Origin: a virus | Lineage: Duplodnaviria > Heunggongvirae > Uroviricota > Caudoviricetes | Reading direction: 5' to 3' (one strand) | IMG/VR virus record: IMGVR_UViG_3300045988_142422 | Length of the DNA stretch: 64,000 nucleotides | Shown: one piece after another, positions 27,233 to 56,495 of the stretch | Position numbering within the stretch: position 1 is the stretch's first letter | Layout: each line of letters begins with the position of its first letter | Translations under genes and position numbers: made by a program | The notes under the pieces: generated by a model | The model's database searches: none | What the model saw: the letters and a program-made list of their open reading frames with translations, nothing else | What the model was told of the DNA's origin: nothing

Positions 27233-27436
27233 GTGCGTAAAGGATGTTTCGGCTCTCTTATCGCTGCTTCTGAAACTGGCAAGGCTTGTCTGGGGTGTCC
27301 AGACAAGCCCGATTGTCACCAATCAGCAAAAGAAGTTGCGATTTCGATGTATGGGAAGTTCGTAGGCTTCCCCAATGACAAAATCAAAAAAACCAGAAAG
27401 GTAAAAACACATGAAGGCACTGATGGTTCGAACTGA
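27233..27436 (+). CDS. Small Cys-rich protein (possible zinc ribbon)
   Basis: GTG start; 67 aa; CLGCPDKPDC; overlaps dnaE start region. Confidence 0.3.
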   Translation: MRKGCFGSLIAASETGKACLGCPDKPDCHQSAKEVAISMYGKFVGFPNDKIKKTRKVKTHEGTDGSN

Positions 27437-30400
27437 CTTCTCACTTGGGGAGTCGGCTCTAAAAGCAGAAAACGCGGTGAAGATTGCCAGAGAAGCTGGC
27501 TACACCGCTGTAATTTCAGCAGATAGCATGAATATTGCGAGCGTTATTCCACTACAACGTGCCGCTGGTGACGACATGGCGATTATTTGTGGTGTGAAAC
27601 TAAACATTGTTGATGATCCCACATACGAGCACCGGGCTAAACTTGCTAAAGAATCTATGAGATGTATGGAATCATTAGAGCGGGGACGTAACTACTCGTT
27701 TACCGCTCTAATTAAAAATGAGCAAGGATATCGCGACATCTGCGAACTAATGACGGCGGCCAACACACGAGAACAGTTCTACTTTGTACCGCGTCTCTCG
27801 CTCGAACAGTTGGTTTCTACATATGCCAAAGGCAACATCATCCTGCTTACTTCCGACATCGGTAGCGTGTTCCAACGCAACGATTTTGCAAAAATCATAA
27901 GCACACTGATTACAGCGGGTGGAAAAGACAACTTCTATAGTGTGGTTTATCCGCACCCTACCCCATTCTACGACCAGATTAACGTCCGGGCGATGAAAGT
28001 CGCCAGCGCATTGAAAATAGAGCCAGTGGCGTTCTATCCCGCTTATTACGAATCGATCGACGATGCAGACATTAAAGACATTGCGCACATGGTTACGAAC
28101 AACATCAAAATCGACCAGCCGCATCGTCTGCGTATCCCCCACCAGCGAGATAACGCCGTCAATGGTCGCCGCCATCTCCTTGAGGCGCTTAAAGCCTTCT
28201 CCGTTCGCATGGATGTGCCGGTAACAGCTGCAATGGCCTCAACAACGCAGGATACCATTATCGATTCCTGCACATGGCGCTGGCATGAATTGCCACCAGC
28301 ACTGCCCAAGATGGCAGACGACGAACCTGCAACGCTGATGAAACTGGCTGTTGCAGGGCTGCGTAAACGTCTTACCACAAAAGAGTTTGGATACACACCG
28401 CCTGCTTCTGAGAACAGGGTTTATGTTGAGCGGCTAAAGTACGAAATGGACACGCTGACTCGCCTGGGATTCTGTGGTTACTTCCTGATGGTGCGCGATC
28501 TGATGAATCATAGTCGTGAAACTGGCATTCCCGTTGGGCCTGGTCGTGGTTCCTCTGCCGGTTCTCTGGTGGCGTGGTGCATAGGCATAACCAACGTCGA
28601 CCCAATCCGTCACGGTCTTCTGTTTGAGCGTTTCATCAACCCTGAGCGTCTCGACTTGCCGGATGCGGACTTGGACTTCAGCCAGGCACGTCGCCATGAG
28701 GTGATCGAGTATCTGAATGAACGCTACGGCGAAGATTACGTTGCGGGTATTCCGAACTTCACCTACCTGGGCGCCGCTTCTGCGCTGCGAGACACTGCGC
28801 GTATTTACGGTGTCGACGCTGCGGATATGGCGGTATCCAAAGAGTTCAAGAATCTGGAAGACGATAGCCTGTCTCTGGAAGAGCTGCGCGAGCAACTGGC
28901 CAGCCTGGACAAATACGCCACGAAAAACCCGGAAGCGTTCAAAGCGGCGTGTAAGCTGCAAAGCCTGATGCGTGGTTTTGGTCGTCACGCTGCGGGGATG
29001 ATCGTCGCTGGCGTTCCACTGGTAGAGCGCACGCCCGTCGAGCTGCGTGGCAACGCTCGCTGTATTGCGTTCGATAAACGTTACTGCGAGGCGATGGGGC
29101 TGATTAAGCTGGACGTTCTCGGTCTGGCAACGCTCGATCTGCTGGATAGCGCGAAACGCTACATCAAAGAGAGTACCGGGGAAGACATCAATCTCGATGC
29201 TATTCCACTGGACGATCGTAAGGTTCTGGATGGGTTCGCTGCAGGGTACACGCAGGGCGTATTCCAGCTGGAGTCCGGCCCCATGCGCAAGCTGCTTAAA
29301 GATTTAGGTGGTGGAATTGAGCCAATGAGCTTTAAAACGGTCGTCGCTACAACTGCGCTCTTCCGGCCGGGGCCAATTCAATCAGGAATGTTGGATGACT
29401 ATGTTTCTGTCGCCAAAGGCTTTATGACGCCGGAATCATTACACCCCGTTCTTGATGAACTTACCGCGGAAACAAATGGCGTGATTCTCTATCAGGAACA
29501 GACGATGAACGCGACTCGATTGCTTGCCGGCTTCACAATGGCTGAAGCTGACGCTGTGCGTTCCGCAATCGGTAAGAAGAACATGGAAAAAATGAAGAGC
29601 ATGGGCGAGAAGTTCATCGTTCAGGCTCAAGCTGGCTGGATAGACGTTGAGCTGGAAGATGGCACTACACAGCGCATTCACCGTGCGGAACATTTTAAAT
29701 GCGAAGACGGAACTCTGAAAACTGTCGAAGAGGCACTTGAGCACGGCGCAAAACTACCTATAAACGCAGTACGCGTTACAGCGTCACATCCAGGGCTATC
29801 AGAGATGAAAGCGAAGGAGATCTGGACCGCATTTGAGAAAAACGGAGCCTATCAGTTCAATAAATCACACTCCGTTGCTTATTCTTTAATCAGTTATCAG
29901 TCTATGTGGCTAAAGACGCACTACCCTGCTGAGTTCTTCGCAGCTGCGCTCACCATTCTGGGCGAGGATAAGCATCAGGGGCTGGTGAAGGATGCGCTGA
30001 CCTATGGCATTCGCGTATTGCCACCAGACGTTAATGTGTCATCTAACCGAATTGAGATCCGCACACTCGAAGACGGCAGTCAGGCACTGTATGCGCCATT
30101 CTCTGCTGTGAAAGGCTGTTCTGAAAATGGTTGTCAGGCAATTATGCGTGCGCGTGAGAAAGTTGGTGGCAAATTCGAGTCAGTGGCACAATTCGATGAA
30201 GCGGTCGAGAAGCGTGCATGTAACAGTCGTGTACGCGAGTCGCTTCATAAAGTAGGGGCTTTTGCGTCAATTGAGCCAGGCAGTCTGCCAGCAACTGATC
30301 CTGAACGACTGCGCGACCAGGCTGAGCTGATGGGCAATCTCATCATTGACGCTGTTAAAGCATCACGTCCGTTCGAAATGAATCCTAAGCGTTCTGCCGA

Positions 30401-30929
30401 AATCAACGTACTCATGACACGTATGGCGGCTGAAATGGGCTTGGGTGAGGAGTTGATACGCCCGACTATTGGTATTAAACCCAAAATCATGATCATTCTG
30501 GACAATGCGAACGGCAATGACGCTCGTACCGGCTACTTCATGGAGAACGGATACGACGACTTTAAGGCAAAACTACTGACAGTTGGAGATCTGCGCATGG
30601 GCGATCTTTATGTCACGGGTGTTTGTAAGAAGGTTAAGGACAAAGAGAAAGACTATACCAAAGACGAGATAGGCCAGTTCACAGACTTTATGCGGGAAGA
30701 AATTAATCTTGTACGACCAACCTACATTTTGACGTGTGGTAGTCGTTCAACCGCACTATTTAACAATAAGAGTAAACCATCAGATCTGATTGGTCGTAAG
30801 GAGTACTTCCCAGAGCTTGATGCAACCGTCTTCTACGGATTTAACCCGAATATCCTGTACTTCCGACCGGAAGAAGGAGAGCGACTGGAGGCCATTCTGG
30901 CTGATATCGCGGAGACAATAAATAAGTAA
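27411..30929 (+). CDS. dnaE: DNA polymerase III alpha-type (DnaE family) replicative polymerase
   Basis: 1172 aa; PHP-like N-terminus; palm motif [36 protein letters not shown]...PDADLDF. Confidence 0.85.
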   Translation: [1172 protein letters not shown]

Positions 30930-30935
30930 TAAAGA

Positions 30936-32880: not shown

Positions 32881-33312
32881 GTGAACACTGATATTTTTTC
32901 TAAAATCATGGCCGATCTGGAGTTCGACCGCGACAACCTTGAGGAAGTATGGCGTAAACAGCCACGGCTTTTAATGGAGTATGGGTCAAAACTAGCGCAG
33001 GCAGATCGAGATGTCGCAGAGGCAAAACTTAACCTTGAAGCTGTTGAAGCAAAGCTATACGACACAGAGCGTAAGAACTTGAGTATGAACGGCATTAAGT
33101 TCAACGAGTCTGTACTGGACGCTAAGGTTAAAACAAACCCACAGTATCTGTCTAAACGGCAGAAGTTGGATGAAGCACGGCACATCGCAGACATATACAA
33201 ACATGCTGTCGCCGCCTTTTCGCATCGCCGAGACATGATCGTTCAGGCGTCAAAGATGGCCATCGTTGAATTAGAGCGATTAGGCTCTGAACGCTTTATT
33301 ACTCCCCGTTGA
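32881..33312 (+). CDS. Hypothetical protein (candidate recombination mediator by position)
   Basis: 143 aa coiled-coil-rich ORF (GTG start) immediately upstream of gp32-like SSB; no motif verified. Confidence 0.4.
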   Translation: MNTDIFSKIMADLEFDRDNLEEVWRKQPRLLMEYGSKLAQADRDVAEAKLNLEAVEAKLYDTERKNLSMNGIKFNESVLDAKVKTNPQYLSKRQKLDEARHIADIYKHAVAAFSHRRDMIVQASKMAIVELERLGSERFITPR

Positions 33313-33317
33313 TTTTT

Positions 33318-33346
33318 GATAGATAATAAGTAAGTACTGATCTATC
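33318..33346. promoter_or_regulatory. Palindromic motif B copy (GATAGAT...ATCTATC)
   Basis: 7-bp arms flanking AATAAGTAAGTACTG, 84 nt upstream of SSB gene. Confidence 0.4.
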
Positions 33347-33429
33347 ATTTAACAGCTCGAAAGAGCCACGAATGAACGAAAGCCCAACGCGCATAGCGCC
33401 ATCGGCCAAATCACAACAAGGAGAAACAC

Positions 33430-34458
33430 ATGTCTAAGACATTACTTGATTTGCTTAACAAAACTCGTGAAGACATTGCCGCCAAACGTGGCAACAACGT
33501 TGATCTGACTCGCTTAAAAGACGGCGTCAACTATATCCGCATCTTCCCGAATAAAGACGACCCAAACGGTAAGTTCTTCCAGACTTTCGGTATGCACTAC
33601 GTTAAGTATCAGAACGAGGAAGGTAAAGAAGCAACCAACGCTTATATTTGTGAGCAACATACTCACGGTCGCGCTTGTCAGCTATGCGAAATGGTTATGG
33701 AAGGTCGCGCTCGTCACAAGGGTAACAAAGCAATGGAAGAACGCATCGGTCAAATGCGTGCCACTCCTCGCTACCTGGTCAACGGCATTCTTTCTGCTCG
33801 TGAGGATTTCGCAGATGCTGAGAAATGCCAGTTAATCGAGCTGCCGTCTACTGTATTCGATGATATCTGCAAAGCAATCACCGAAGACATCGCTGATGAT
33901 ATCGGCAATCCACTGAGCAAAGAGGAAGGCTACGCATTCCTGATTAAACGTACTGGCTCTGGTCGCGATACCAAATATGACGTCTCGCCTAAGCGTAAAG
34001 TCTACAAAGGCGATATCGAAGATAAATTCTGGAACACCCAGCATGATCTGATCGCATACGCAAATCAGGCTGATGAAACTCGTCTTCTGTCGACAGTTCG
34101 CACTATGGGTCGTCTGATTGGCATCGCTGCACCAACTGCCGCAGCATCTGCACCAGCAATTTCCTCAACCGCGAAAACATCGGCTGCGGCACTACCTGGA
34201 TTTGGCTCTGTCACTGGTCATACGGAGGGTGCGACTGCTGTAGCAACCGCTCACACCCCAGCTTCTGAACCAACCAGTCTGGTTGATGAAGAAATCCTCC
34301 GTGCCGTTGAAACTGAATTTAAACCAGAAGCAAGTTCCGCTGCCGTTGCCGTATCAGTCAAAGAGTCTGAAGCAGTCGCAGCGACATCTGTAGCAGCCGC
34401 ATCTGCGACGGAAGATGAAGGTCTGGATGACCTACTGAGAGAGCTGGACTCTCTGTAA
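33430..34458 (+). CDS. Single-stranded DNA-binding protein, T4 gp32-like
   Basis: Zinc-binding pattern CEQHTHGRACQLC; N-terminal IRIFPNKDD; acidic C-terminal tail DEGLDDLLRELDSL. Confidence 0.7.
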   Translation: MSKTLLDLLNKTREDIAAKRGNNVDLTRLKDGVNYIRIFPNKDDPNGKFFQTFGMHYVKYQNEEGKEATNAYICEQHTHGRACQLCEMVMEGRARHKGNKAMEERIGQMRATPRYLVNGILSAREDFADAEKCQLIELPSTVFDDICKAITEDIADDIGNPLSKEEGYAFLIKRTGSGRDTKYDVSPKRKVYKGDIEDKFWNTQHDLIAYANQADETRLLSTVRTMGRLIGIAAPTAAASAPAISSTAKTSAAALPGFGSVTGHTEGATAVATAHTPASEPTSLVDEEILRAVETEFKPEASSAAVAVSVKESEAVAATSVAAASATEDEGLDDLLRELDSL

Positions 34459-34474
34459 TCCCATTACGTGACCA

Positions 34475-34504
34475 GTAAGGCGTCTACGGACGCCTTACTT
34501 TTTG
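34475..34504 (+). terminator. Rho-independent terminator after SSB gene
   Basis: GTAAGGCGTC-TACG-GACGCCTTAC then TTTTT; lies inside the track ORF 34468..35463, arguing for a later start. Confidence 0.75.
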
Positions 34505-34518
34505 GAAGGAATGTACCG

Positions 34519-35463
34519 GTGAATTATCTCTTCGTAGATGGCAATAGCCTGGGTTATTACCACCAACAATCTGACAAATTGCACAACGGCGAAATGGAAG
34601 TACAGGCTGCTTTCGGCTTTGTTAAGAACGTCCGTCGTTATGCCTCCATCCTCCATGCCCGACCTATGATTCTTTGGGATGGATTTAGTGACAAGCGTCG
34701 CGACTTTTACCCGGACTACAAAGCAAATCGCGACGACGATCCTGATATGAAAAAGATGAAGGAAGGCTTTGCTATCCAGAAGCCATACATCCTCAAAATG
34801 ATGACCGCGCTTGGAGTTACCCAACTCATTGCAAAAGATGCAGAAGCGGATGATCTGGCCGGGCTGCTGGTATCCCGCATGGCACCGCAGCCAACCGTTG
34901 AACACATCTATCTGTTAACAGGCGATAGCGACTGGCTTCAGTTAGTTCGTGAAAACGTAAGCTGGGTAAGCCTGCGTGAAGACGCCAAAAACAAGCAGGT
35001 TAATTTTGAGCAATTTGCGGAGCTGACAGGATTCGCCACGCCTCGCGCATTTTTGGAAGCAAAAGCATTACAAGGCGATAACTCGGACAACATTAGCGGT
35101 GTTGGTGGCATTGGTGCTGGCGGTGCGAAAGAGCTGCTGCATGAATGGGGAAGTGTCGCAACGATGGTACGCGGCATCAACGACGGCTCAATCGTGGTTA
35201 ATAAAGGGCGTCATAAGACCGCCTTCAACAAACTAGCGAAGAATGCCTTCAACGAGAAAACAGGCTGTCGAATGCTCGAAGCGTTCAAGAGAAACATCAC
35301 GCTAATGAACCTGATTGAGACGAAGTTTCCGCCTACCGAAATCGAAACAATCAAAGGCAATCGTGACGTGAAAGCATTCGAGCAACTGTGCTACGAGCTG
35401 AATTTCCGTTCGTTCCTTGAAGACCTTGAAGTGTTTGTTCTTCCATTCGAAAGGTATTGCTAA
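34519..35463 (+). CDS. 5'-3' exonuclease / flap endonuclease (T4 RNase H-like)
   Basis: GTG start after GGAAGG; N-terminus VNYLFVDGNSLGYY typical of 5' nuclease family. Confidence 0.7.
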   Translation: MNYLFVDGNSLGYYHQQSDKLHNGEMEVQAAFGFVKNVRRYASILHARPMILWDGFSDKRRDFYPDYKANRDDDPDMKKMKEGFAIQKPYILKMMTALGVTQLIAKDAEADDLAGLLVSRMAPQPTVEHIYLLTGDSDWLQLVRENVSWVSLREDAKNKQVNFEQFAELTGFATPRAFLEAKALQGDNSDNISGVGGIGAGGAKELLHEWGSVATMVRGINDGSIVVNKGRHKTAFNKLAKNAFNEKTGCRMLEAFKRNITLMNLIETKFPPTEIETIKGNRDVKAFEQLCYELNFRSFLEDLEVFVLPFERYC

Positions 35464-35729: not shown

Positions 35730-35731
35730 TC

Positions 35732-46695: not shown

Positions 46696-46704
46696 GGAGA
46701 CTAT

Positions 46705-47347: not shown

Positions 47348-49663
47348 ATGATAAGCATCGTAAAACGTAACGGCCAAACAGAGCCGTTATCCGAAGAAAA
47401 ATACAACCGCGTCGTAATGTATGGCGTAGAAGGCATTCGTGGTGTAAGCGCATCCGCTGTAGCAATGGGAGCTGCGGCCAGCATTTTTGATGGGATTACC
47501 ACCAGCCAGTTGCATGAGGCTTTGGTTAAATCTGCCGCTGATTTGATCTCACCAGAAGCACCAAATTACTCACAGGTGGCTGCCCGCCTGAACATTTTTA
47601 AAATCCGCAAAGATGCCTTCGGTCGTTACGACTATCCGAACTTCTACCAACACATTGTCAAGAACGTTAACAAGGGCGTTTATGACAAGGATTTGCTGAC
47701 ACATTATTCGTTTGAAGAGATCGAAGAACTCGGCAATTACATTAAGCCGAAACGTGACGATCTTTTTGGCTATGCAGCTACGGTGCAGTTGCAAAGCAAA
47801 TACCTCGTTCAAAACCGTGTTACTGGTGAGATTCATGAGGGGCCGCAACATATCTATATGCTGGTAGGCATGTGTCTGTTCCAGAATTGGGAAGACGACT
47901 GCGCTGGCAAAACACGTATGGAGATGGTCAAAGGTTTCTATGACGTTACAAGTACGTTCAAACTGTCTCTGCCCACACCAATCATGGCCGGCGTCCGTAC
48001 TCCAACCCGTCAGTTCTCCAGTTGTGTGCTGATTGAGTCTGGCGATAGTCTGAAAGGGATTAGTGCAGCTTCAGCCGCAATTATCGACTACGTTTCACGT
48101 CGTGCTGGAATTGGTATTGGTTTTGGCCGTATCCGTGCGCTGGGCAGCGAGATCCGCAATGGTGAAGCCACCCATACTGGAGTTATTCCATTCCTGAAGC
48201 ATTTCCAGACGGCTGTTAAATCTTGTTCGCAAGGTGGTGTTCGTGGTGGCGCAGCAACAGCGTTTTACCCGATCTGGCATCTTGAAGTTGAAAGTCTGCT
48301 GGTGGTGAAAAATAACCGTGGTATTGATGAAAACCGCGTTCGCCATCTTGATTACGGCGTCATGAGTAACCGTCTAATGTACCGTCGACTCGTCAGAAGC
48401 GAGAACATCACTCTGTTCAGCCCGCATGATGTGCCTGATATGTACGAAGCCTTCTTCACAGACCAGGAGCTGTTTGAAAAGCTGTACCATAAATACGAAG
48501 CCGATGATTCAATTCGCAAGAAGTCAGTACCTGCCATTGAGCTGTTCTCATCTCTGATGCAGGAACGAGCGTCCACGGGCCGAATTTATATTGCGAACGT
48601 CGATCATATTAACGAGCATGGCGCTTTCATTCCTGCTCTTGCACCTGTTCGCCAGTCAAACCTGTGCATGGAGATCACTCTACCCACTCGTCCACTGGCA
48701 TTTACCGACGACCCGAACGGTGAGATCGCGCTATGCACTTTATCCGCTTTTAACCTCGGAGCCATCCGTTCACTGGAGTCTCTTAAAGAGGTGGCGTTCT
48801 ATGCCGTTGCTGCACTGGATTCGTTACTGGATTATCAAGACTATCCGATGGAGGCAGCCGAAGTGCCTGCCAAAGCTCGTCGTAGCTTGGGAATTGGTGT
48901 AACCAACTTTGCTTATTACCTGGCAAAGAATGGCGTTCGTTATTCTGATACCGCTGGCAATAAACTGGTGCATGAAACGTTCGAAGCTATCCAGTATTAC
49001 CTTCTTGATGCCAGCTGCCGACTTGCTGAAGCAAAAGGTGAGTGTGACTGGTTTGAGCAGACCAAGTACGCAATTGGTCAGTTGCCGATCGACCATTACC
49101 GTTCTTCATTAGACGAAAGTGGCGAAACCAACTTTGAGTTAAAGATGCCGTGGGAAGAACTGCGTGAACGTATTGCAAAATACGGCCTTCGCAACTCCAC
49201 ACTGACGGCACAAATGCCATGCGAGACTTCCAGCCAGATCACTAATTCCACCAACGGCATCGAACCGCCTCGTGGCCCGGTGTCGGTGAAATCTTCTAAG
49301 GACGGCATCGTTAAGATGGTCGTGCCTGAGTTTGAAAAACTGAAGGAACAGTATGAATACCTGTGGGATATGCCGGACAACCGCGGCTATCTGACAAAGG
49401 TGGCGATCATCCAGAAGTTCTTTGACCAGGCTATTTCAGCCAATACCAACTATGACCCTTCTCGCTTTGAAGGCGATAAAGTCCCAATGATGACGCTACT
49501 GTCAGATTTGCTTCTCGCCTACAAGATGGGAGTTAAAACGCTTTACTACCACAACACCAGAGATGGGGCAGGAAAGCGTGATGACGACGAACCGCAGAAT
49601 CCACTGACGCAAGCTGTAGCCGTCGAGCCAGAAGATGAGTGCGACGGAGCCTGCAAAATCTGA
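47348..49663 (+). CDS. nrdA: Ribonucleotide reductase class Ia alpha subunit
   Basis: 771 aa; ATP-cone N-terminus; active-site NLCMEITLP; C-terminal CDGACKI like E. coli NrdA. Confidence 0.9.
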   Translation: MISIVKRNGQTEPLSEEKYNRVVMYGVEGIRGVSASAVAMGAAASIFDGITTSQLHEALVKSAADLISPEAPNYSQVAARLNIFKIRKDAFGRYDYPNFYQHIVKNVNKGVYDKDLLTHYSFEEIEELGNYIKPKRDDLFGYAATVQLQSKYLVQNRVTGEIHEGPQHIYMLVGMCLFQNWEDDCAGKTRMEMVKGFYDVTSTFKLSLPTPIMAGVRTPTRQFSSCVLIESGDSLKGISAASAAIIDYVSRRAGIGIGFGRIRALGSEIRNGEATHTGVIPFLKHFQTAVKSCSQGGVRGGAATAFYPIWHLEVESLLVVKNNRGIDENRVRHLDYGVMSNRLMYRRLVRSENITLFSPHDVPDMYEAFFTDQELFEKLYHKYEADDSIRKKSVPAIELFSSLMQERASTGRIYIANVDHINEHGAFIPALAPVRQSNLCMEITLPTRPLAFTDDPNGEIALCTLSAFNLGAIRSLESLKEVAFYAVAALDSLLDYQDYPMEAAEVPAKARRSLGIGVTNFAYYLAKNGVRYSDTAGNKLVHETFEAIQYYLLDASCRLAEAKGECDWFEQTKYAIGQLPIDHYRSSLDESGETNFELKMPWEELRERIAKYGLRNSTLTAQMPCETSSQITNSTNGIEPPRGPVSVKSSKDGIVKMVVPEFEKLKEQYEYLWDMPDNRGYLTKVAIIQKFFDQAISANTNYDPSRFEGDKVPMMTLLSDLLLAYKMGVKTLYYHNTRDGAGKRDDDEPQNPLTQAVAVEPEDECDGACKI

Positions 49664-49726
49664 CATATGGTGGGGTATAACCCCACCTTCTCTTTGATTT
49701 GTAAGCCTTGTTTAAACAAATAAGAT

Positions 49727-49738
49727 AACAACTTGTTT
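49727..49738. promoter_or_regulatory. Palindromic motif A copy (AACAACTTGTTT) upstream of nrdB; second copy TTGTTTAAACAA at 49708-49719
   Basis: Two overlapping-family palindromes 30-60 nt upstream of ATG 49769. Confidence 0.4.
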
Positions 49739-49768
49739 AAACACATCAAAAAGCAAAAGGAAAAACAC

Positions 49769-50911
49769 ATGTCATATTCAACGTTCCGTTTGGGTGCTAA
49801 TGATGCAACCAAAGAGCCTATGTTCCTCGGACAATCTGTCAACGTGGCACGTTACGATCAGCAAAAATACCGTGATTTTGAAAAGTTGATTGAACGTCAA
49901 TTGTCTTTCTTCTGGCGGCCGGAAGAAGTTGATATTTCGAGCGATCGTATCGACTTCAACACGAAGCTGCGGGACCACGAACGTCACATTTTTCTGAGCA
50001 ATCTCCGTTATCAAACGTTACTCGATTCAGTTCAGGGACGTAGCCCAAATGCAACGCTGCTGCCTCTTATCTCTATTCCTGAACTGGAAACGTGGGTTGA
50101 AACATGGTCTTTCTCTGAGACTATCCATAGCCGCAGCTACACCCACATTATTCGTGGCATGGTGGACGATCCGAGCATTGTTTTTGACGGTATTGTTACG
50201 GATGAAGAAATCATCAACCGAGCGATCAGTATCTCTGCTGAATATGACAGGCTTTATGGGATGACCTGCGAGCGCCAGTCGTTAGGTGAGAAGGAGTTTG
50301 AACGTCTGTACGTAAATGAATATGGCTGGGAGCCATACCCTTTGCACCGTCAGCTTTTCCGCACGTTGGTGTCCATTAATGCGCTTGAGGCGATCCGTTT
50401 CTATGTAAGTTTTGCATGTACGTTTGCCTTTGGCGAACGGAAGTTGCTTGAGGGTAACACCAAAATTATGCGCTTTATTGCCCGTGATGAAGCTCTGCAT
50501 TGCGAAGGAACTGAACGCATGATCCGCTTCATGCGTACCGGTCGCGAAGGTTTATTGTGGAAAGAGATTGCTGCTGATGAAGAAAACGTCATTTACGACA
50601 CCATGAAATCAGTCGCCGAACAAGAAATGAACTGGGCAGACTATCTCTTCAAAGACGGTTCGATGATTGGTTTAAACGCGGATATTCTCAAAACCTATGT
50701 AAAATACCGCACCAATCTGGCTATGAATCGTCTTGGCCTGAAGGCTTTATTTCCAGAGGTTACCACCGATCCGCTGGTCTGGATGAACAAGTGGTTGTTA
50801 ACCGACACACTGCAAATTGCACCACAAGAGGCAGAGCAAAGCACATATCTGGTAGGTCAGATCGATTCTACCGTGGATAAGGCTTCTCTAAGCCAGTTTG
50901 CTGACCTGTAA
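49769..50911 (+). CDS. nrdB: Ribonucleotide reductase class Ia beta subunit
   Basis: Start at MSYSTF after AAAGGAAAAACAC; very close match in pattern to E. coli NrdB from memory; C-terminal SQFADL. Confidence 0.9.
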
Positions 50912-50988
50912 ACCGATACAAAGCATTATGTGGCCTGGCAACGCTGGGCCACAATGGATCACAAGAATTAAGAAGGAACAAAACTAGC

Positions 50989-51858
50989 ATGAACTTTACC
51001 AAACTGACTGACCACCTGAAACTTGCCACCGATCGACTCATTGGATTTAAGCCAGAACCATATGAGTTGCATGAAGGTCATGGTGTAGCTACTGAAAGTA
51101 TTTACAAGATGGTCGATCAGTTTCATGAACTCTTCCAGCATCCGAGACGCGTTATGCCGACACCAGAGCTGCTTCGTCTCCGTGCAAGCCTGATTCATGA
51201 AGAAGCTGTAGTGGAAGGTATTCCAGCCGCAATGAATGGGGATATTGAGCAACTGCTGGATGCAATGGCCGACTTTTTATACGTTGGTGTTGGTACGATG
51301 GTCGCCATCAAAGGTGGTATTTCTACCGGCATGACCTATTACACGCAGGAACAGAGCATTGATCGCTTTATGCAGACAATTTTTGTGCCCGGTAACACTG
51401 TTTTCGATGATATGGCAATGCCATTTCAGGAAGCTCGTGAGGCGTCATGTATGCTCGAAGAGCTGGCAGATAAACTTGAGAACAAGACTGTTAAGGATTC
51501 TGAGCTGATTCAGGAACTGCGCCGTGTCATGAACAAAATCTATGTGGCGTGCATGATGACCTATCGACTGGCTGATTTCCTCGGTATCAATGTCGTCGAG
51601 CTGGTTGGCGAAATTCATCGGTCTAACATGACAAAATTATGGCCTGCTGATGTAGAGGAACGTCGCCAGGCTGTGGCCAACTGCAAATACGACTCTTCAG
51701 ACCTGGGATTTCGCCATGCTGATGGCACCGATAAGATGATCGGTTTTCGAATTTCCGATGGAAAGATTCTGAAGTCTCCAACCTATAGTGATGTCGATTT
51801 ATCCTCCTTTGTTGAGCAAGCTAAAGCCTCAGCAATGTACGGAATGATTAAAAAATAA
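50989..51858 (+). CDS. Hypothetical protein, possibly all-alpha NTP pyrophosphohydrolase (MazG-like)
   Basis: 289 aa; acidic pattern EEAVVE...DIEQLLDAMADF reminiscent of MazG E..E...E..D motif; weak. Confidence 0.3.
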   Translation: MNFTKLTDHLKLATDRLIGFKPEPYELHEGHGVATESIYKMVDQFHELFQHPRRVMPTPELLRLRASLIHEEAVVEGIPAAMNGDIEQLLDAMADFLYVGVGTMVAIKGGISTGMTYYTQEQSIDRFMQTIFVPGNTVFDDMAMPFQEAREASCMLEELADKLENKTVKDSELIQELRRVMNKIYVACMMTYRLADFLGINVVELVGEIHRSNMTKLWPADVEERRQAVANCKYDSSDLGFRHADGTDKMIGFRISDGKILKSPTYSDVDLSSFVEQAKASAMYGMIKK

Positions 51859-51926
51859 TTGTAGGTAGTTATCTATCTGTGTATATTGCGTTGGCGCGTT
51901 AAATTTCTGAAACAACTATTCGTTTT

Positions 51927-51952
51927 TGGTGGCCTATGGCCACCATTTTTTT
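51927..51952 (+). terminator. Rho-independent terminator
   Basis: TGGTGGCC-TAT-GGCCACCA then TTTTTTTATC. Confidence 0.8.
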
Positions 51953-52029
51953 ATCTATCTGGCCTTGTTCCCTCAATAAATGTAAACTCACTTAATGAAT
52001 AAGTGGTTACTTATCTTTGTGAGGTTTTT

Positions 52030-53133
52030 GTGTCACTCCTTTTGAATCGTGAGCATACGAACGGTCAGGTAACAAACGCATCGTATGCAAAAGTTATTGA
52101 GACGGTGCTTAAAAGCGGCGTGCAGGCTGATGATCGCACAGGCACTGGTACTTTAAGCACCTGCTACGTTCCCTCTTACTACATGCTTACTGGTGGGACT
52201 GTGCCGCTTATTTCTGGAAAGGCGGTAAATCTTAAGCCACTGCTTGTCGAACTTGAGTGGTATCTGAAAGGCACGGGCAACATCCAATTTCTCAAGGATA
52301 ACGGCGTTAAGATTTGGGATGCATGGGCCGATGAGAATGGCGATTTGGGGCCGGTTTACGGTAAGCAGTGGCGTCGATGGGAAGATACCCGCATCGTGAG
52401 CCATAGTGAATATCTGAGCAAGATCGATACTTTCCGTGAACGCGGGTACAAAGTCGAGGGATACCTGGGTATCAGTGAAGATCGCGTAGTGCTGTCCCGT
52501 GAAATCGATCAGCTACAGCGTATTGTCGATACACTGCGCACGAACCCTACCGATCGTCGCATCATGCTTAACGCATGGAACGTAGGCGAGCTTGAGGATA
52601 TGAAACTGCCACCTTGCCACTTTGTCTTCTCTTTGTGGAGTCGTGAGCTGGATTTTGAAACCCGTTTAACGATGGCAACTGACATTGGTCTTCAACACAG
52701 TCGCCTCGGTTACGAGTCTATCTACACCAAGATGCTATACGATCTGGAGATGGACGGCAGTGTTACTGAAGCTGAACTGGATGAACTTGGAATCCCCAAA
52801 CGCATCCTCAACTCCTGCCTCGTACAGCGTAGCGTAGACACTTTTGTTGGTATGCCATTCAATATTGCTGGCTATGGCATTCTCACTCATTTTCTCGCGA
52901 AGATTACGGGTCACATGGCCGGTGCATTTGTGCATTTTGGCTTTGACGTGCATTTGTACAACAACCACATGGAAGGTGTGTGTGAGCTAATGAAACGACA
53001 AGCTCCAGAGCATTCAGATCCGGTCGTTATTTTCCCTCATGAATGGTCAGAGTTGGATGATTTCAAATGGGACGAGGTTTTAATTCTTGGCTATGACCCT
53101 CTACCGTGGATCAAGGTTCCAGTGGCGGTGTGA
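52030..53133 (+). CDS. thyA: Thymidylate synthase (ThyA family, with insertions)
   Basis: DRTGTGT, IWDAWADENGDLGPVYGKQWR, catalytic LPPCH, GMPFNIA, HLYNNH; start set at GTG 52030 because motif B overlaps the 52003 GTG. Confidence 0.85.
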   Translation: MSLLLNREHTNGQVTNASYAKVIETVLKSGVQADDRTGTGTLSTCYVPSYYMLTGGTVPLISGKAVNLKPLLVELEWYLKGTGNIQFLKDNGVKIWDAWADENGDLGPVYGKQWRRWEDTRIVSHSEYLSKIDTFRERGYKVEGYLGISEDRVVLSREIDQLQRIVDTLRTNPTDRRIMLNAWNVGELEDMKLPPCHFVFSLWSRELDFETRLTMATDIGLQHSRLGYESIYTKMLYDLEMDGSVTEAELDELGIPKRILNSCLVQRSVDTFVGMPFNIAGYGILTHFLAKITGHMAGAFVHFGFDVHLYNNHMEGVCELMKRQAPEHSDPVVIFPHEWSELDDFKWDEVLILGYDPLPWIKVPVAV

Positions 53134-53134
53134 T

Positions 53135-53548
53135 ATGGCAAGAGGTATGTATGTCTTATGCGAAATTGAAGGTGTGCTGGCAAATACCAGTCATCGTAAA
53201 TCTGTATCTGACGCGGATGCAGGCCAGCTCATTGCCGGTGATGAACTCATTTTCCCCACCAGCCGTATGTTGCGTGGTTTTGCTCGCTCAGGGGCTGAAG
53301 TGGTGCTTATCAGTAGCCGCTCTGAAACTCTTGAAGCGCCCACTAAACGATGGCTGAAAGATTTTGGTGTTGATTACGACTGGCTTCATCTCGTACCGAA
53401 TAGCACTAGTTATGAGAAGCATATTAAGCGCACATTAGCGGAGCATAAAGGCGATCTGCTTATCGCTGCGCTGGTGCACGATCCTCGACTCCGTGCCGCT
53501 TTAGCTGACTCTCATCATAGACCGGTCATCTATGAGGTGAGCAAATGA
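53135..53548 (+). CDS. Hypothetical protein (possible HAD-like phosphatase)
   Basis: ATG at 53135 directly after thyA stop; N-terminal MYVLCEIEGVLAN loosely resembles HAD motif I. Confidence 0.3.
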   Translation: MARGMYVLCEIEGVLANTSHRKSVSDADAGQLIAGDELIFPTSRMLRGFARSGAEVVLISSRSETLEAPTKRWLKDFGVDYDWLHLVPNSTSYEKHIKRTLAEHKGDLLIAALVHDPRLRAALADSHHRPVIYEVSK

Positions 53549-54021
53549 AGATGATAGCTGCTGTTGGCCGTAACTATGAGATCGGCATAGCGAACGAACT
53601 GCCCTGGCGTTGTCCTACCGATCTGAAGCTATTTAAGAGACTCACCAAAAACGCCACTGTCGTTATGGGGCGTAAAACGATGGAAAGTCTCAAACGCCCT
53701 CTTCCAGAGCGTCATAACCTCGTTTTGACGCGCTCTCATGGCTTTGTACCAAATGGATTCTACCCTGCTGGTGTGGATGATGTGTTGCGATTACCAGAGC
53801 CTGTGTGGGTGATTGGCGGGGAACAAATTTACTCGCTATTCATGCCGCATGTTGAAGAGATTTGGCTCTCCCACATCGGCGTTGATGTGCCAAACGCCGA
53901 TGCATTCTTCCCGGCAAGCATGATGCGTAATTTAGGCTTTGTGCCTGTTGAAACAGCTTATACCCAACGAGCCAGCGAGGAAGAGCCTGGCTTTTCGCAG
54001 ATCGTATACAGAAGGTCGTAA
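53545..54021 (+). CDS. Dihydrofolate reductase
   Basis: MIAAVGRNYEIGIANELPW...VVMGRKT...NLVLTRS matches DHFR signature. Confidence 0.85.
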   Translation: MKMIAAVGRNYEIGIANELPWRCPTDLKLFKRLTKNATVVMGRKTMESLKRPLPERHNLVLTRSHGFVPNGFYPAGVDDVLRLPEPVWVIGGEQIYSLFMPHVEEIWLSHIGVDVPNADAFFPASMMRNLGFVPVETAYTQRASEEEPGFSQIVYRRS

Positions 54022-54665: not shown

Positions 54666-54726
54666 AAATTGTTCGCCTCTTCGACATTGCGACAATAAAA
54701 CTCTCAAAATGGGTTAAGGATAAAAA

Positions 54727-55146: not shown

Positions 55147-55155
55147 GGAGTAGTA

Positions 55156-55950
55156 ATGGGACAACCGGTAGACATAACAGGTAAACGTTTTGGAAAGTTG
55201 GTTGCACTTAAATATTCCGGTATTTCAAACAAACAAGGGCGACTTTGGGATTGCATCTGCGATTGCGGCAACACCTGCCTGGTTAGTTACGGGAAGCTAA
55301 ATCACGGGGCGACAATATCGTGTGGCTGTGTCTACAACGCACATCGCCGTAGCGTAAAGCCTCATGGTATGAGTAAAACGCCAATTTATCGTATATGGCT
55401 GGGTATGCGGGAACGATGTGAAAAACCAACCCATCACGCCTATAAGTGGTATGGCGGCCGAGGTATCAAAGTCTGCGAGCGGTGGCAAATATTTGAAAAC
55501 TTTTATGCTGACATGGGAGAGCGACCAGAGGGGATGTCTCTTGATCGCAAAGATGTGAATGGTGACTACGAACCTGAAAATTGCAGATGGGCGACTTTTG
55601 AAGAACAGGCCAATAACACGCGTTCAAACTTAATTTTGGAGCATAAGGGGGAAAAGCTGACTCTCTCACAATGGGCTAAAAGAGCCGGGATTCAGACATC
55701 AACTCTTCACTATCGAATCAAGAAAGGGTGGCCATTAGATCGCGCGCTTAACGCCAGCGTCGACACGTATGCCAACCGAGATAGTAAGCGTCTGATCGAG
55801 TGTCGCGGCAGAACTCAGCGAATTACCGAATGGGCTAGAGAGATTGGCTTGACTGCGACCATTATCTCGCAGCGAATCTTGAGGGGGTGGGATGTTGAAG
55901 CTGCCATCTTCACACCGTCCAAACGACCAGTAAAAGGAGATAAAAAGTGA
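55156..55950 (+). CDS. HNH-type homing endonuclease candidate
   Basis: Cys cluster CICDCGNTC...CGC; motif YRIWLGMRERC...YKWYGGRGIKVCERW...NCRWATFEEQANNTRSN recalled from phage HNH endonucleases. Confidence 0.5.
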   Translation: MGQPVDITGKRFGKLVALKYSGISNKQGRLWDCICDCGNTCLVSYGKLNHGATISCGCVYNAHRRSVKPHGMSKTPIYRIWLGMRERCEKPTHHAYKWYGGRGIKVCERWQIFENFYADMGERPEGMSLDRKDVNGDYEPENCRWATFEEQANNTRSNLILEHKGEKLTLSQWAKRAGIQTSTLHYRIKKGWPLDRALNASVDTYANRDSKRLIECRGRTQRITEWAREIGLTATIISQRILRGWDVEAAIFTPSKRPVKGDKK

Positions 55951-56495
55951 TTGCTACAGGGGTGGACATCGAATCAACAGGTCTTGATTTCCTCTCAGGC
56001 CATAAAATCATTGAAATCGCAATGGTGAAGTACGAAATTGAGACACAGACAATGGTTGATAGTTTTGTAATGCGGTTCAACCCGCGTCGCAGTATCGATC
56101 CGAAAGCGCAAGCGGTACACGGCATCAGTCTTGAAGATTTAGCCGCCGAGCCGTTACTAGCCGATCACGCTTCATCTGTCGCTTCGTATCTCTCTTCTTC
56201 CGATATTTGGATAGCCCACAACGGCGAAGCGTTCGATATTCCGTTTATTAGGCATGAGCTGAAAAGTTACGGTTTTTCGCTTCCAGACATCCCATTGATT
56301 GACACTCTATTTTCCCTGTGGGCCACAGAAGACGGTAAACGTCCCCGCCTTGAAGAGTTGGCCTTCTCTCTTGGCTTTATATACGATCATGCCAAAGCAC
56401 ATAGTGCCTTATATGACACAAACTTAATGATGCAATGCTTCTTTAAGGCACGTAATAAGTACGGATTTTTTAAATTACCCTCTGAAATTGTGTAA
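55947..56495 (+). CDS. DnaQ-like 3'-5' exonuclease (DEDDh)
   Basis: GTG start after AAGGAG; Exo I DIESTGL, Exo II HNGEAFDIPFI, Exo III HSALYD. Confidence 0.75.
   Translation: MIATGVDIESTGLDFLSGHKIIEIAMVKYEIETQTMVDSFVMRFNPRRSIDPKAQAVHGISLEDLAAEPLLADHASSVASYLSSSDIWIAHNGEAFDIPFIRHELKSYGFSLPDIPLIDTLFSLWATEDGKRPRLEELAFSLGFIYDHAKAHSALYDTNLMMQCFFKARNKYGFFKLPSEIV

What the first reader, a model, noticed from the sequence alone, without database searches (positions are those of the whole stretch)
27411..56495. Bacterial-type replisome: DnaE-family polymerase with a separately encoded DnaQ-like proofreader
The replicative polymerase is a 1172-aa Pol III alpha homologue rather than a family A or B phage polymerase, and a stand-alone DEDDh exonuclease lies 25 kb away. 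Together with a DnaB-type helicase, primase and gp32-like SSB, the element assembles a hybrid replisome from bacterial and T4-like parts.
Basis: partly seen in the sequence, partly recalled or inferred. Interest (0 to 1): 0.45.

Follow-up and report, generated by a model that had tools for sequence, protein, structure and literature searches.

The report
Phage-plasmid's own DnaE polymerase and exonuclease
The window is a common SSU5-type phage-plasmid of E. coli that carries its own bacterial-type DNA polymerase and a separate epsilon-like exonuclease; both genes are real but already annotated in hundreds of public records, and the polymerase's one unusual trait, a uracil-glycosylase-like tail, has been noted in print and never tested.

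Summary
ORF 27411-30929 encodes a 1172-aa DnaE-type (C-family) polymerase. ORF 55947-56495, 25 kb downstream, encodes a 182-aa DEDDh exonuclease whose closest solved relative is the catalytic domain of E. coli epsilon.

The window is an SSU5/pHCM2-type phage-plasmid, 98-99% identical to known E. coli plasmids. The dnaE copy occurs in 244 of 5,426 complete E. coli genomes, always on plasmids, and RefSeq names it dnaE. Public phage records already call the exonuclease "PolIII subunit epsilon" or dnaQ. The finding as stated is therefore already known.

Three details were not in the finding:
- The PHP domain has lost all nine metal ligands, so it cannot proofread.
- A family-4 UDG-fold domain replaces the OB fold and tau-binding tail. 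Timinskas et al. 2014 noted this in one sentence.
- The exonuclease lacks epsilon's C-terminal tether to alpha.

The exonuclease co-occurs almost one-to-one with this DnaE-UDG variant in phages and plasmids, but all carriers belong to one syntenic lineage. Proofreading in trans is the best inference (about 0.55), not a demonstrated function. I found no clamp or clamp loader, though a conserved Qx[ED]L[LM]PG motif could be a host beta-clamp site. "Hybrid replisome" fits the gene content; assembly is unproven.

The parts
27411..30929 (+). DnaE-type (C-family) DNA polymerase, 1172 aa, 'DnaE-UDG' variant
   Evidence: Pfam PHP, DNA_pol3_alpha, finger and HHH_6. NCBIfam TIGR00594 scores 624.6 bits, above its cut-off of 434; the DnaE1 equivalog PRK05673 scores 674.6, below its cut-off of 1002. 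30% identical to E. coli DnaE aa 9-893; D418, D420 and D568 correspond to E. coli D401, D403 and D555. Best PDB match is Taq Pol III alpha, E 4e-121.
27411..28280 (+). Degenerate PHP domain (aa 1-290), 0 of 9 metal ligands kept
   Evidence: The positions matching M. tuberculosis DnaE1 H14, H16, D23, H48, E73, H107, C158, D226 and H228 are M5, R7, E14, S39, K63, S96, S148, P210 and Y212. E. coli alpha keeps 5 of 9.
29628..29783 (+). 52-aa insertion (aa 740-791) relative to E. coli and Taq DnaE
   Evidence: Appears as a gap in the alignments. It coincides with the point where relatives are split into two genes (P0274 starts at aa ~784; L004 has 790-aa and 385-aa parts) or carry inteins (P0045).
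30006..30275 (+). (HhH)2 domain (aa 866-955)
   Evidence: Pfam HHH_6, E 3e-16. Homology to E. coli alpha ends at aa 956, which matches E. coli 893.
30318..30341 (+). Conserved motif Q970-AELMGNL, candidate host beta-clamp-binding site
   Evidence: The family consensus is R-x-[KR]-D-Q-x-E-L-[LM]-P-G-[LI]. Among 115 cluster representatives, Q occurs in 92, L in 84 and [LMI] in 100. The motif lies just after the HhH domain, as E. coli 920-QADMF-924 does. AF2 places it in a helix with pLDDT 75-83, so its status as a free linear motif is uncertain.
30423..30926 (+). C-terminal UDG-fold domain (aa ~1005-1172) in place of the OB fold and tau-binding domain
   Evidence: NCBIfam UDG_fam4, E 5e-7, below cut-off. 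Family profiles hit PDB family-4 UDGs: 4zbx at E 1.7e-21 and 1.4e-19, 1vk2 and 1ui0. The AF2 model has pLDDT 90.3, and Foldseek matches 4zbx at E 1.3e-11 with TM 0.80. Motif A reads LDNAN instead of GEAPG, motif B reads NPN instead of HPx, and the Fe-S cysteines are absent.
55947..56495 (+). Stand-alone epsilon-like DEDDh 3'-5' exonuclease, 182 aa
   Evidence: Pfam RNase_T, E 1e-22. phrog_192 'DNA polymerase exonuclease subunit', E 6e-51. Best PDB sequence match is the E. coli epsilon N-terminal domain, E 7e-12. D7, E9, D97, H152 and D157 are invariant. The AF2 model has pLDDT 96, and Foldseek matches epsilon at TM 0.79-0.83, rmsd 2.4 A.
12662..14002 (+). DnaB-family replicative helicase
   Evidence: Pfam DnaB_C, E 4e-13. 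phrog_19, E 5e-88, and NCBIfam phage_DnaB at 51.7 bits, below cut-off.
14150..15262 (+). DnaG/Toprim-type primase
   Evidence: phrog_47, E 7e-65. TIGR01391, E 2e-9, below cut-off. Weak Pfam hits to DNAG_N and Toprim_2.
16652..17974 (+). ATP-dependent DNA ligase
   Evidence: Pfam DNA_ligase_A_M, E 6e-13.
23791..27230 (+). CobT-like (VWA) and CobS-like (AAA+) pair directly upstream of dnaE
   Evidence: Pfam CobT_C at 6e-83 and AAA_5 at 2e-15. The CobS-dnaE adjacency is kept in Pseudomonas phage nickie and in metagenomic locus L004. Function unknown.
32881..36805 (+). UvsY-like mediator, gp32-like SSB, FEN-type 5'-3' exonuclease and RecA-like recombinase
   Evidence: Pfam gp32 at 1.7e-66, 5_3_exonuc_N at 2e-24 and RecA at 2e-42. 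The UvsY name comes from the Cyrano annotation.
40033..41088 (-). RepA (Rep3-type) plasmid replication initiator
   Evidence: Pfam Rep3_N, E 1e-10. RefSeq names it 'replication protein RepA' and PLSDB types the replicon as IncFIB. It marks the separate plasmid-mode replication system.
42731..47274 (+). SbcD/SbcC-like nuclease pair, a 247-aa unknown ORF and a RuvC-like resolvase
   Evidence: Pfam Metallophos, AAA_23 and SMC_N. phrog_159 RuvC-like, E 3e-57.
47348..54021 (+). Nucleotide-supply block: NrdA, NrdB, MazG-like, ThyA, Pnk-like, DHFR
   Evidence: Pfam hits.
59155..59829 (+). RNase H
   Evidence: Pfam RNase_H, E 1e-44.

Best explanation
The window is about 60% of an SSU5/pHCM2-type phage-plasmid of E. 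coli. In the prophage state the element probably replicates as a low-copy IncFIB plasmid through RepA and the host replisome (inferred). For lytic growth it carries its own replication, recombination and nucleotide-supply module.

The polymerase is a catalytically intact DnaE-type enzyme with two unusual features. Its PHP domain has lost every metal ligand, so it cannot proofread. Its OB fold and tau-binding tail are replaced by a family-4 UDG-fold domain, so it cannot be held in a host-type holoenzyme through tau.

The 182-aa DEDDh exonuclease encoded 25 kb downstream is the element's only DEDDh-type 3'-5' exonuclease. It most likely removes misincorporated 3' ends for this polymerase, acting in trans as epsilon does for E. 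coli alpha. It must be attached differently, because epsilon's C-terminal tether is missing.

Processivity probably comes from the host beta clamp through the conserved Qx[ED]L[LM]PG motif, from the UDG-fold domain acting as a DNA-binding module, or from both.

Shown: gene identities, intact active sites, dead PHP, UDG fold, co-occurrence and synteny. [quoted passage not shown]
For: Identity of the element: 98-99% nucleotide identity to E. coli plasmids such as NZ_KP792123, and 87-94% to phages SSU5 and Cyrano.

Polymerase: the domain hits and the conserved Asp triad.

Dead PHP: 0 of 9 ligands are kept, and 40 of 44 full-length relatives are equally degenerate. This creates a need for an external proofreader if fidelity is to be kept.

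Exonuclease: all DEDDh residues are invariant across 43 aligned sequences (42 family members plus E. coli epsilon). The best sequence match is epsilon, which also gives the best TM-score and rmsd, although some other DEDDh domains have slightly lower Foldseek E-values.

Co-occurrence:
- In 50,697 phage records the exonuclease orthologue occurs in 31 records and the DnaE-UDG tail in 32. The counts per host genus are identical, apart from one extra 13-kb "Bacteriophage sp." fragment that carries only the tail. The DnaE core hits 1,192 records.
- In 72,556 plasmids the counts are 884 for the exonuclease and 976 for the DnaE-UDG tail, with near-equal numbers per genus.
- The one outlier is Yersinia pMT1. 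In pMT1 of strain CO92, the one record examined, dnaE is broken by IS100 and the whole replication block is deleted.

Synteny: the order helicase-primase-ligase-CobT-CobS-DnaE-SSB-FEN-RecA-SbcDC-RuvC-RNR-ThyA-DHFR-exo is kept in Pseudomonas phage nickie.

No clamp or loader: none is annotated in the whole Cyrano genome, and there is no Pfam hit among the window's ORFs of at least 100 aa that were scanned (the named + strand set and four - strand ORFs).

Clamp-like motif: conserved in 115 cluster representatives.
Against: No physical link between the exonuclease and the polymerase was found.
- The exonuclease has no epsilon-type C-terminal segment.
- No relative fuses the two proteins. The long DnaE-UDG relatives carry inteins, not exonuclease domains, and all 153 exonuclease relatives are stand-alone proteins of about 180-200 aa.
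- The two genes are never adjacent.

Co-occurrence is confounded, because all carriers are one syntenic lineage.

The fold search does not separate epsilon from the DinG exonuclease domain, RNase T or a Cas-associated DnaQ domain by E-value.

The clamp-like motif is predicted to be helical rather than an exposed peptide.

The absence of a clamp rests on annotation and profile searches. Several conserved ORFs of 240-270 aa remain unassigned (15341-16117, 11869-12618, 45952-46695, 56654-57463).
Confidence: 0.6

Rival explanations
1. The exonuclease is not a polymerase subunit. It is a free-standing 3'-5' DNA or RNA exonuclease used in recombination-dependent replication, DNA-end processing, host-DNA breakdown or nucleotide salvage, like T4 DexA or E. 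coli ExoX and RNase T. On this view it merely travels in the same conserved early-gene block as dnaE.
For: It lies 25 kb from dnaE, at the end of the nucleotide-metabolism block (RNR, ThyA, DHFR, kinase-like ATPase) rather than next to replication genes. It has no tether motif. RNase T, ExoX and the DinG exonuclease domain are nearly as good fold matches as epsilon. The element is rich in recombination nucleases (FEN, SbcCD, RuvC-like) that would need partner activities.
Against: The best sequence matches are consistently epsilon-type models: NCBIfam dnaQ_proteo and PRK05711 at the top, RNase T and ExoX about 15 orders of magnitude weaker. Epsilon is also the best match by TM-score and rmsd. 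The polymerase has no proofreading activity of its own. Distribution is tightly matched with the DnaE-UDG variant and not with other DnaE phages.
Confidence: 0.28
2. The DnaE-UDG protein is not the replicative polymerase. It would be a repair or uracil-processing polymerase, either DnaE2-like or coupled to base excision, while host Pol III copies the element in both plasmid and lytic modes.
For: It lacks the OB fold and the tau-binding domain that define replicative DnaE1. It carries a glycosylase-fold domain. The element has RepA, which normally recruits the host replisome. No clamp or loader is encoded.
Against: It scores much closer to the DnaE1 model than to the error-prone DnaE2 model: PRK05673 at 674.6 bits against PRK05672 at 403.3 bits. 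It is embedded in a full set of fork proteins (helicase, primase, SSB, FEN, RNase H, ligase) plus dNTP-synthesis genes. The same polymerase and gene order occur in Pseudomonas phage nickie and Rhizobium phage RHEph10, whose records list no other DNA polymerase in the regions examined. The UDG-like domain has lost two of the three canonical uracil-contact residues.
Confidence: 0.1
3. The genes are decaying remnants with no current function in this element.
For: Some relatives do carry broken copies. The dnaE of pMT1 is split by IS100. Internal deletion variants P0291 and P0289 exist.
Against: Both ORFs here are full-length with every catalytic residue intact. They are 97% and 93% identical in protein sequence to copies in isolated phages. 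The close relative Cyrano produces virions on induction (PMC9928086).
Confidence: 0.02

Closest known systems
SSU5 / pHCM2 / pLF82 (Cyrano) / pECOH89 phage-plasmids (SSU5 supergroup)
   Same: Same element type, with 87-99% nucleotide identity, the same gene order and the same dnaE and exonuclease genes. pECOH89 was described as sharing dnaE, dnaG, rnhA, dam, dfrA and nrdAB (PMC3999498). Cyrano's record annotates 'DNA polymerase III alpha subunit' and 'Exonuclease, PolIII subunit epsilon'.
   Different: There is only allelic mosaicism. The exonuclease allele is 93% identical to Klebsiella phage copies but 79% to E. coli phages Cyrano and PhiR41_1. An HNH gene is inserted just upstream of it. 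dnaE is one fused ORF here, whereas many relatives have it as two genes.
E. coli Pol III core (alpha DnaE + epsilon DnaQ)
   Same: A C-family polymerase with a non-catalytic PHP domain is paired with a separately encoded DEDDh exonuclease. Polymerase and exonuclease active-site residues are conserved.
   Different: There is no OB fold and no tau-binding domain. PHP keeps 0 of 9 ligands against 5 of 9 in E. coli. The exonuclease lacks epsilon residues ~181-243, which hold the clamp motif and the alpha-binding tail. No theta, tau or gamma complex or beta is encoded. Both proteins fall below the NCBIfam equivalog cut-offs.
'DnaEX' UDG variant of Timinskas et al. 2014 (NAR 42:1393, PMC3919608)
   Same: [quoted passage not shown]
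   Different: That paper gave one sentence and did not link the variant to phages. Here it is shown to be the polymerase of a broad phage and phage-plasmid lineage: 140 clusters at 50% identity, 976 plasmids and 32 phage records. It has a dead PHP domain and a co-distributed epsilon-like exonuclease.
Phage A-family polymerases fused to a UDG domain (SPO1-like, SP15-like; bioRxiv 10.1101/2025.03.26.645540; Kazlauskas & Venclovas 2011, PMC3201878)
   Same: A replicative phage polymerase is covalently joined to a family-4-type UDG-fold domain. The proposed roles are uracil handling and/or processivity.
   Different: The polymerase family differs (C rather than A). The domain is C-terminal rather than N-terminal. 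The canonical motifs are altered here (D for E in motif A, N for H in motif B, uracil-binding Asn lost), so activity is doubtful.
M. tuberculosis DnaE1 (PHP-domain proofreader)
   Same: A DnaE-type replicative polymerase. It was used here as the reference for the nine PHP metal ligands.
   Different: The M. tuberculosis PHP domain is an active exonuclease. The phage PHP domain has none of the ligands. Only 3 of 44 full-length DnaE-UDG relatives (P0130, P0135, P0145) keep 8 of 9.

Membership tests
C-family DNA polymerase, DnaE type | PHP, palm/thumb/fingers and (HhH)2 core architecture | tested here: met
   Pfam PF02811, PF07733, PF17657 and PF14579 all score above their cut-offs. TIGR00594 scores 624.6 against a cut-off of 434.
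C-family DNA polymerase, DnaE type | Catalytic aspartates (E. coli D401, D403, D555) | tested here: met
   D418, D420 and D568 align with them.
DnaE1 (replicative alpha subunit, equivalog) | C-terminal OB fold and tau-binding domain; curated equivalog score | tested here: not met
   There is no OB (PF01336) or CTD hit. Homology to E. coli ends at aa 956, which matches E. coli 893. PRK05673 scores 674.6 bits against a cut-off of 1002. The tail is a UDG fold.
DnaE1 (replicative alpha subunit, equivalog) | Internal beta-clamp-binding motif after the HhH domain | tested here: inconclusive
   Q970-AELM fits Qx[DE]L[hydrophobic] and is conserved in 115 representatives. It is predicted to be helical, and binding was not tested.
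PHP-domain proofreading exonuclease | Nine metal-coordinating residues | tested here: not met
   0 of 9 are kept (M, R, E, S, K, S, S, P, Y). The ligand list is from established knowledge of M. tuberculosis DnaE1.
DnaQ / Pol III epsilon | DEDDh catalytic residues and RNase T-type fold | tested here: met
   D7, E9, D97, H152 and D157 are invariant. Pfam RNase_T scores 81.5 bits against a cut-off of 24. TM-score to 1j53 and 2gui is 0.79-0.83.
DnaQ / Pol III epsilon | C-terminal segment that binds the alpha PHP domain, and the QTSMAF-type clamp motif | tested here: not met
   The protein ends at aa 182, which corresponds to about epsilon residue 190. Nothing aligns with epsilon 190-243. The conserved C-terminal GFFxLP does not fit the clamp-motif consensus and is modelled as packed, with pLDDT 93.
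DnaQ / Pol III epsilon | Curated family score (NCBIfam dnaQ models) | tested here: not met
   PRK05711 scores 77.3 against a cut-off of 196, TIGR01406 scores 76.5 against 222.7, and TIGR00573 scores 59 against 71.5.
DnaQ / Pol III epsilon | Physical association with, and proofreading for, the polymerase | not testable with these tools
   No multimer prediction or biochemistry was available. Only co-occurrence could be measured.
Family-4 uracil-DNA glycosylase | UDG alpha/beta fold | tested here: met
   Foldseek matches 4zbx at E 1.3e-11 with TMt 0.80. The family profile matches 4zbx at E 1.7e-21.
Family-4 uracil-DNA glycosylase | Motif A GE(A/G)PG, uracil-binding Asn, motif B HP(S/A), and four Fe-S cysteines | tested here: not met
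   The window has LDNAN, Gly in place of the Asn, and NPN. Only two Cys residues occur in the domain, neither at a cluster position. The window's own copy also misses the Pfam PF03167 threshold, while 40 of 41 relatives pass it.
SSU5-type phage-plasmid | Near-identity and synteny with known members; plasmid RepA and ParA together with siphovirus structural genes | tested here: met
   98-99% identity to E. coli plasmids. RepA, ParA, tail-tip, tail-fibre and lysis genes lie in the window.
T4-type gp32 SSB | gp32 DNA-binding domain | tested here: met
   Pfam PF08804 at E 1.7e-66, 224.7 bits against a cut-off of 26.8.

The most novel reading that the evidence does not exclude
The DnaE-UDG polymerase and the tail-less epsilon-like exonuclease may form a distinct, tau-independent, phage-type Pol III replicase. 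In this reading the UDG-fold domain has been converted from a glycosylase into a template-uracil sensor or a built-in processivity and DNA-binding module. The polymerase would dock on the host beta clamp through the Qx[ED]L[LM]PG motif. The exonuclease would be recruited by an interface unlike the epsilon-PHP tether, with the dead PHP domain kept only as that docking surface. No member of this family has been studied biochemically, as far as the searched literature shows.
Probability: 0.3. Interest if true: 0.5.

Novelty: already known. Interest (0 to 1): 0.25.

Why it matters
As stated, the finding adds nothing new. These genes are annotated as dnaE and as an epsilon-like exonuclease in hundreds of plasmid and phage records, and the element belongs to one of the best-catalogued phage-plasmid groups.

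What remains open is biochemical. This may be the most accessible natural case of a Pol III-type polymerase working without tau, without an OB domain and without PHP chemistry, with a UDG-fold domain attached. It sits in an E. coli element carried by about 4.5% of complete genomes.

Characterising it could show how a C-family polymerase is made processive and accurate outside the bacterial holoenzyme. It could also show whether these common plasmids, some of which carry resistance genes, have a replication fidelity of their own during lytic growth.

Tried and rejected
1. Fusion ("Rosetta stone") search. The long DnaE-UDG relatives (P0045, P0130, P0113, P0145) contain inteins and LAGLIDADG domains, not an exonuclease. 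All 153 exonuclease relatives are stand-alone proteins. No fusion supports a physical link.

2. The search for related loci with alignment A1 failed because no stretch was conserved enough. Neighbourhoods came instead from the look-up of encoding contigs and annotated phage records.

3. The exonuclease's conserved C-terminal GFFxLP was considered as a clamp-binding or PIP-like peptide, because MAFFT places it under epsilon's QTSMAF. I judge this weak: it lacks the Q/L pattern and AF2 models it as packed, with pLDDT 93.

4. Yersinia pMT1 looked like a counter-example, with the DnaE tail present in 63 plasmids and the exonuclease in about none. It is not one. In pMT1 CO92, dnaE is split by IS100, and the helicase, primase, ligase, RNR, ThyA, DHFR, exonuclease and RNase H genes are all gone.

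5. Clamp and clamp-loader search. Pfam, NCBIfam, PHROGs and PADLOC gave nothing on the unassigned ORFs.

6. The supplement of Kazlauskas et al. 2016 was not held.

7. The SSU5 literature that was searched contains no experimental work on this polymerase or exonuclease.

Full report
**What the window is.** A nucleotide search of the large ORF and of the right-hand 24 kb shows that the window is an SSU5/pHCM2-type phage-plasmid of E. coli.
- It is 98-99% identical to plasmids such as NZ_KP792123 and CP088852.
- It is 94.5% identical to phage Cyrano (pLF82) and 87% identical to Salmonella phage SSU5.
- The window carries siphovirus tail and lysis genes, ParA, toxin-antitoxin pairs, three tRNAs, an integrase, a Rep3-type RepA and a long early-gene block.
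- The dnaE copy is found in 244 of 5,426 complete E. coli genomes, always on plasmids, and RefSeq names it "dnaE: DNA polymerase III subunit alpha".
- The family is well catalogued as the SSU5 supergroup (PMC7969092). pECOH89 was described in 2014 as sharing dnaE, dnaG, rnhA, dam, dfrA and nrdAB (PMC3999498). Cyrano is inducible and makes virions (PMC9928086).

**Checking the observation.**
- ORF 27411-30929 (1172 aa) hits Pfam PHP, DNA_pol3_alpha (E 5e-73), DNA_pol3_finger and HHH_6. Its best solved relative is Taq Pol III alpha (E 4e-121).
- It aligns with E. coli DnaE aa 9-893 at 30% identity. The catalytic aspartates are conserved: D418, D420 and D568 match E. coli D401, D403 and D555.
- ORF 55947-56495 (182 aa, GTG start) hits Pfam RNase_T (E 1e-22). 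Its best solved relative by sequence is the N-terminal domain of E. coli epsilon (E 7e-12, 32% identity).
- All five DEDDh residues (D7, E9, D97, H152, D157) are invariant in a 43-sequence alignment (42 family members plus E. coli epsilon).
- The helicase (12662-14002), primase (14150-15262) and gp32-like SSB (33430-34458) are also present.

**The polymerase is not a standard DnaE.** Three features stand out.
- PHP domain. I mapped the nine metal ligands of the M. tuberculosis DnaE1 PHP exonuclease (H14, H16, D23, H48, E73, H107, C158, D226, H228; established knowledge) through the HMMER alignment to 7pu7/5lew and a MAFFT alignment. The window has M, R, E, S, K, S, S, P and Y at those positions, so 0 of 9 are kept. 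E. coli keeps 5 of 9. The PHP domain therefore cannot be an exonuclease. Forty of 44 full-length relatives are equally degenerate; three keep 8 of 9 ligands and a fourth (P0078) keeps some.
- C-terminal region. Homology to E. coli alpha stops at aa 956, before the OB fold and tau-binding domain. The C-terminal ~170 aa are a uracil-DNA-glycosylase fold:
  - NCBIfam gives a weak UDG_fam4 hit.
  - A 41-sequence family profile hits solved family-4 UDGs (4zbx E 1.7e-21, 1vk2 and 1ui0).
  - Forty of 41 relatives pass Pfam UDG on their own. The window's copy is the exception.
  - An AlphaFold2 model of aa 860-1172 (pLDDT 90.3) matches 4zbx with TM 0.80.
  - Against 4zbx, motif A GEAPG reads LDNAN (the Asp is invariant in the family), the uracil-contacting Asn is Gly, and motif B HP reads NP. 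The Fe-S cysteines still visible in distant relatives are gone. Glycosylase activity is therefore doubtful.
- Insertion. A 52-aa insertion (aa 740-791) sits exactly where many relatives are split into two genes or carry inteins.

**Prior knowledge of this architecture.**
- Timinskas et al. [quoted passage not shown] That variant is this protein family.
- Kazlauskas and Venclovas 2011 noted that viral C-family polymerases diverge from E. coli after the fingers domain and mostly lack clamps (PMC3201878).
- UDG fusions to phage A-family polymerases are known and at least some are active (bioRxiv 10.1101/2025.03.26.645540).
- I found no experimental work on the C-family version.

**Is the exonuclease the proofreader?**
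- Evidence for:
  - The polymerase has no intrinsic proofreader.
  - This is the only DEDDh-type 3'-5' exonuclease found in the element.
  - Its best sequence models are epsilon models: NCBIfam PRK05711 and TIGR01406 at E ~1e-21, against ~1e-4 for RNase T and ExoX.
  - An AF2 model (pLDDT 96) superposes best on epsilon, with TM 0.79-0.83 and rmsd 2.4 A.
  - The distribution matches. In 50,697 phage records the exonuclease orthologue is in 31 and the UDG-type DnaE tail in 32. The host-genus counts are identical: 12 SSU5-like records (Klebsiella 6, Escherichia 4, Salmonella 2), Rhizobium 10, Pseudomonas 6, Stenotrophomonas 2 and Xanthomonas 1. The one extra tail-only record is a 13-kb "Bacteriophage sp." fragment. 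DnaE cores occur in 1,192 records.
  - In 72,556 plasmids the counts are 884 and 976, nearly equal genus by genus.
  - The apparent exception, Yersinia pMT1, is a decayed element, at least in the CO92 record examined. Its dnaE is split by IS100, and the helicase, primase, ligase, RNR, ThyA, DHFR, exonuclease and RNase H genes are deleted.
- Evidence against:
  - The protein is only the catalytic domain. Epsilon's clamp motif and alpha-binding tail have no counterpart, and it scores below every curated dnaQ cut-off.
  - No relative fuses it to the polymerase.
  - The genes are always ~25 kb apart.
  - All carriers share one gene order, as in nickie, so co-occurrence may reflect common descent alone.
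  - The fold search ranks the DinG exonuclease domain and RNase T about as high as epsilon by E-value.
- I put trans-proofreading at about 0.55 and an independent exonuclease role at about 0.3.

**Processivity and holoenzyme.**
- No clamp or clamp loader is annotated in the complete Cyrano genome.
- None is detected by Pfam among the window's ORFs of at least 100 aa that were scanned. NCBIfam and PHROGs gave none on the subsets they were run on.
- Without a tau-binding domain the polymerase cannot join a host-type holoenzyme in the usual way.
- Just after the HhH domain, where E. coli alpha has its internal clamp motif QADMF, the family has a strongly conserved R-x-[KR]-D-Q-x-E-L-[LM]-P-G-[LI]. 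In this window it reads Q970-AELMGNL.
- This fits the Qx[DE]L[hydrophobic] clamp-binding pattern (established knowledge) and would explain its conservation across hosts.
- AF2 places the motif in a helix of moderate confidence, so I treat it as a candidate only.
- Several conserved ORFs of 240-270 aa remain unassigned and could hide a divergent accessory factor.

**Overall reading.**
- The element has two replication systems: RepA for plasmid maintenance, and a phage module for lytic growth. The timing of the phage module is inferred.
- The module combines DnaE and an epsilon-like exonuclease with DnaB- and DnaG-family proteins, a gp32-like SSB, a UvsY-like mediator, RecA, FEN, RNase H, ligase, SbcCD-like and RuvC-like nucleases, and RNR, ThyA, DHFR and MazG enzymes.
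- "Hybrid" is a fair description of the gene content. However, helicase and primase family membership does not separate bacterial from T4 ancestry.

**Verdict.** The one non-textbook feature, a DnaE with a dead PHP domain and a UDG-fold tail, is already in the literature as a one-line note and is uncharacterised. Interest is 0.25.

Noticed in passing
window 55156-55950 (+), overlapping the exonuclease start at 55947: An HNH-endonuclease-like ORF (264 aa; phrog_374 E 2e-79) sits between the 139-aa ORF 54727-55146 and the exonuclease. Its stop overlaps the exonuclease GTG start by 4 nt. Phage Cyrano lacks it; there the exonuclease follows the 139-aa ORF directly. The exonuclease allele here is 93% identical to Klebsiella phage copies but only 79% to E. 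coli phages, while DnaE is 97% identical to E. coli phage PhiR41_1. This pattern would fit homing-endonuclease-driven allele replacement.
   Followed up: partly
window 29628-29783 (DnaE aa 740-791); loci L004, P0274, P0045, P0291, P0289: The 52-aa insertion in DnaE marks a hotspot. Many relatives have dnaE as two genes split at this point: P0274 stands for 1,459 member sequences, and L004 has a 184-aa ORF between the halves. Others carry inteins there. Some Enterobacter and other copies have large internal deletions, with aa 1-495 joined to 936-1172.
   Followed up: partly
window 23791-27230 (+): A CobT-like (VWA) and CobS-like (AAA+, MoxR-type) gene pair lies immediately upstream of dnaE. The adjacency is conserved in Pseudomonas phage nickie and in a distant metagenomic relative (L004), and pMT1 also keeps it. 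This suggests a role tied to the polymerase rather than to cobalamin synthesis.
   Followed up: partly
window 19564-22847: A tRNA cluster (Asn, Thr, Ser) is followed by a low-GC island (GC 0.358 against about 0.46 elsewhere). The island holds a 302-aa minus-strand ORF (20206-21114) that matches only phrog_35492 of unknown function. A tyrosine integrase (21744-22847) and a putative repressor follow. The island differs from the corresponding Cyrano segment.
   Followed up: partly
window 35732-36805 versus Cyrano (L001 28309-30648): The RecA-like gene is 357 aa here but 779 aa in Cyrano. This suggests an intein or other large insertion in the Cyrano copy.
   Followed up: no
window 56654-57463 (+) and 54727-55146 (+): Two unassigned ORFs flank the exonuclease. 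The 269-aa ORF has a homologue downstream of the exonuclease in phage nickie (33% identity over its C-terminal 106 aa). The 139-aa ORF gives only a weak hit near the RHEph10 exonuclease. They may be conserved neighbours of unknown function.
   Followed up: partly
window 1882-7119 (+): This siphovirus-type element carries a long tail-fibre protein with T4 gp34 and gp37 trimerisation domains and an endosialidase-chaperone domain. A T-even-type Gp38 adhesin follows (Pfam GP38, E 2e-70). The receptor-binding module therefore looks borrowed from T-even phages.
   Followed up: no
locus L010/L011 (Y. pestis CO92 pMT1): In pMT1 the dnaE homologue is disrupted by IS100. aa 1-1012 lie at 93170-96211 and aa 1009-1172 at 57272-56781, next to the second IS100 copy. 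The whole helicase-primase-ligase and RNR-ThyA-DHFR-exonuclease blocks are missing, while CobT, CobS, SSB, FEN, RecA, SbcCD and RuvC remain.
   Followed up: yes
window 52003-53133 (+): The thymidylate synthase ORF (376 aa from a GTG start) matches the Pfam ThyA profile in two separate stretches. This suggests an internal insertion relative to canonical ThyA. RefSeq calls a 367-aa product.
   Followed up: no
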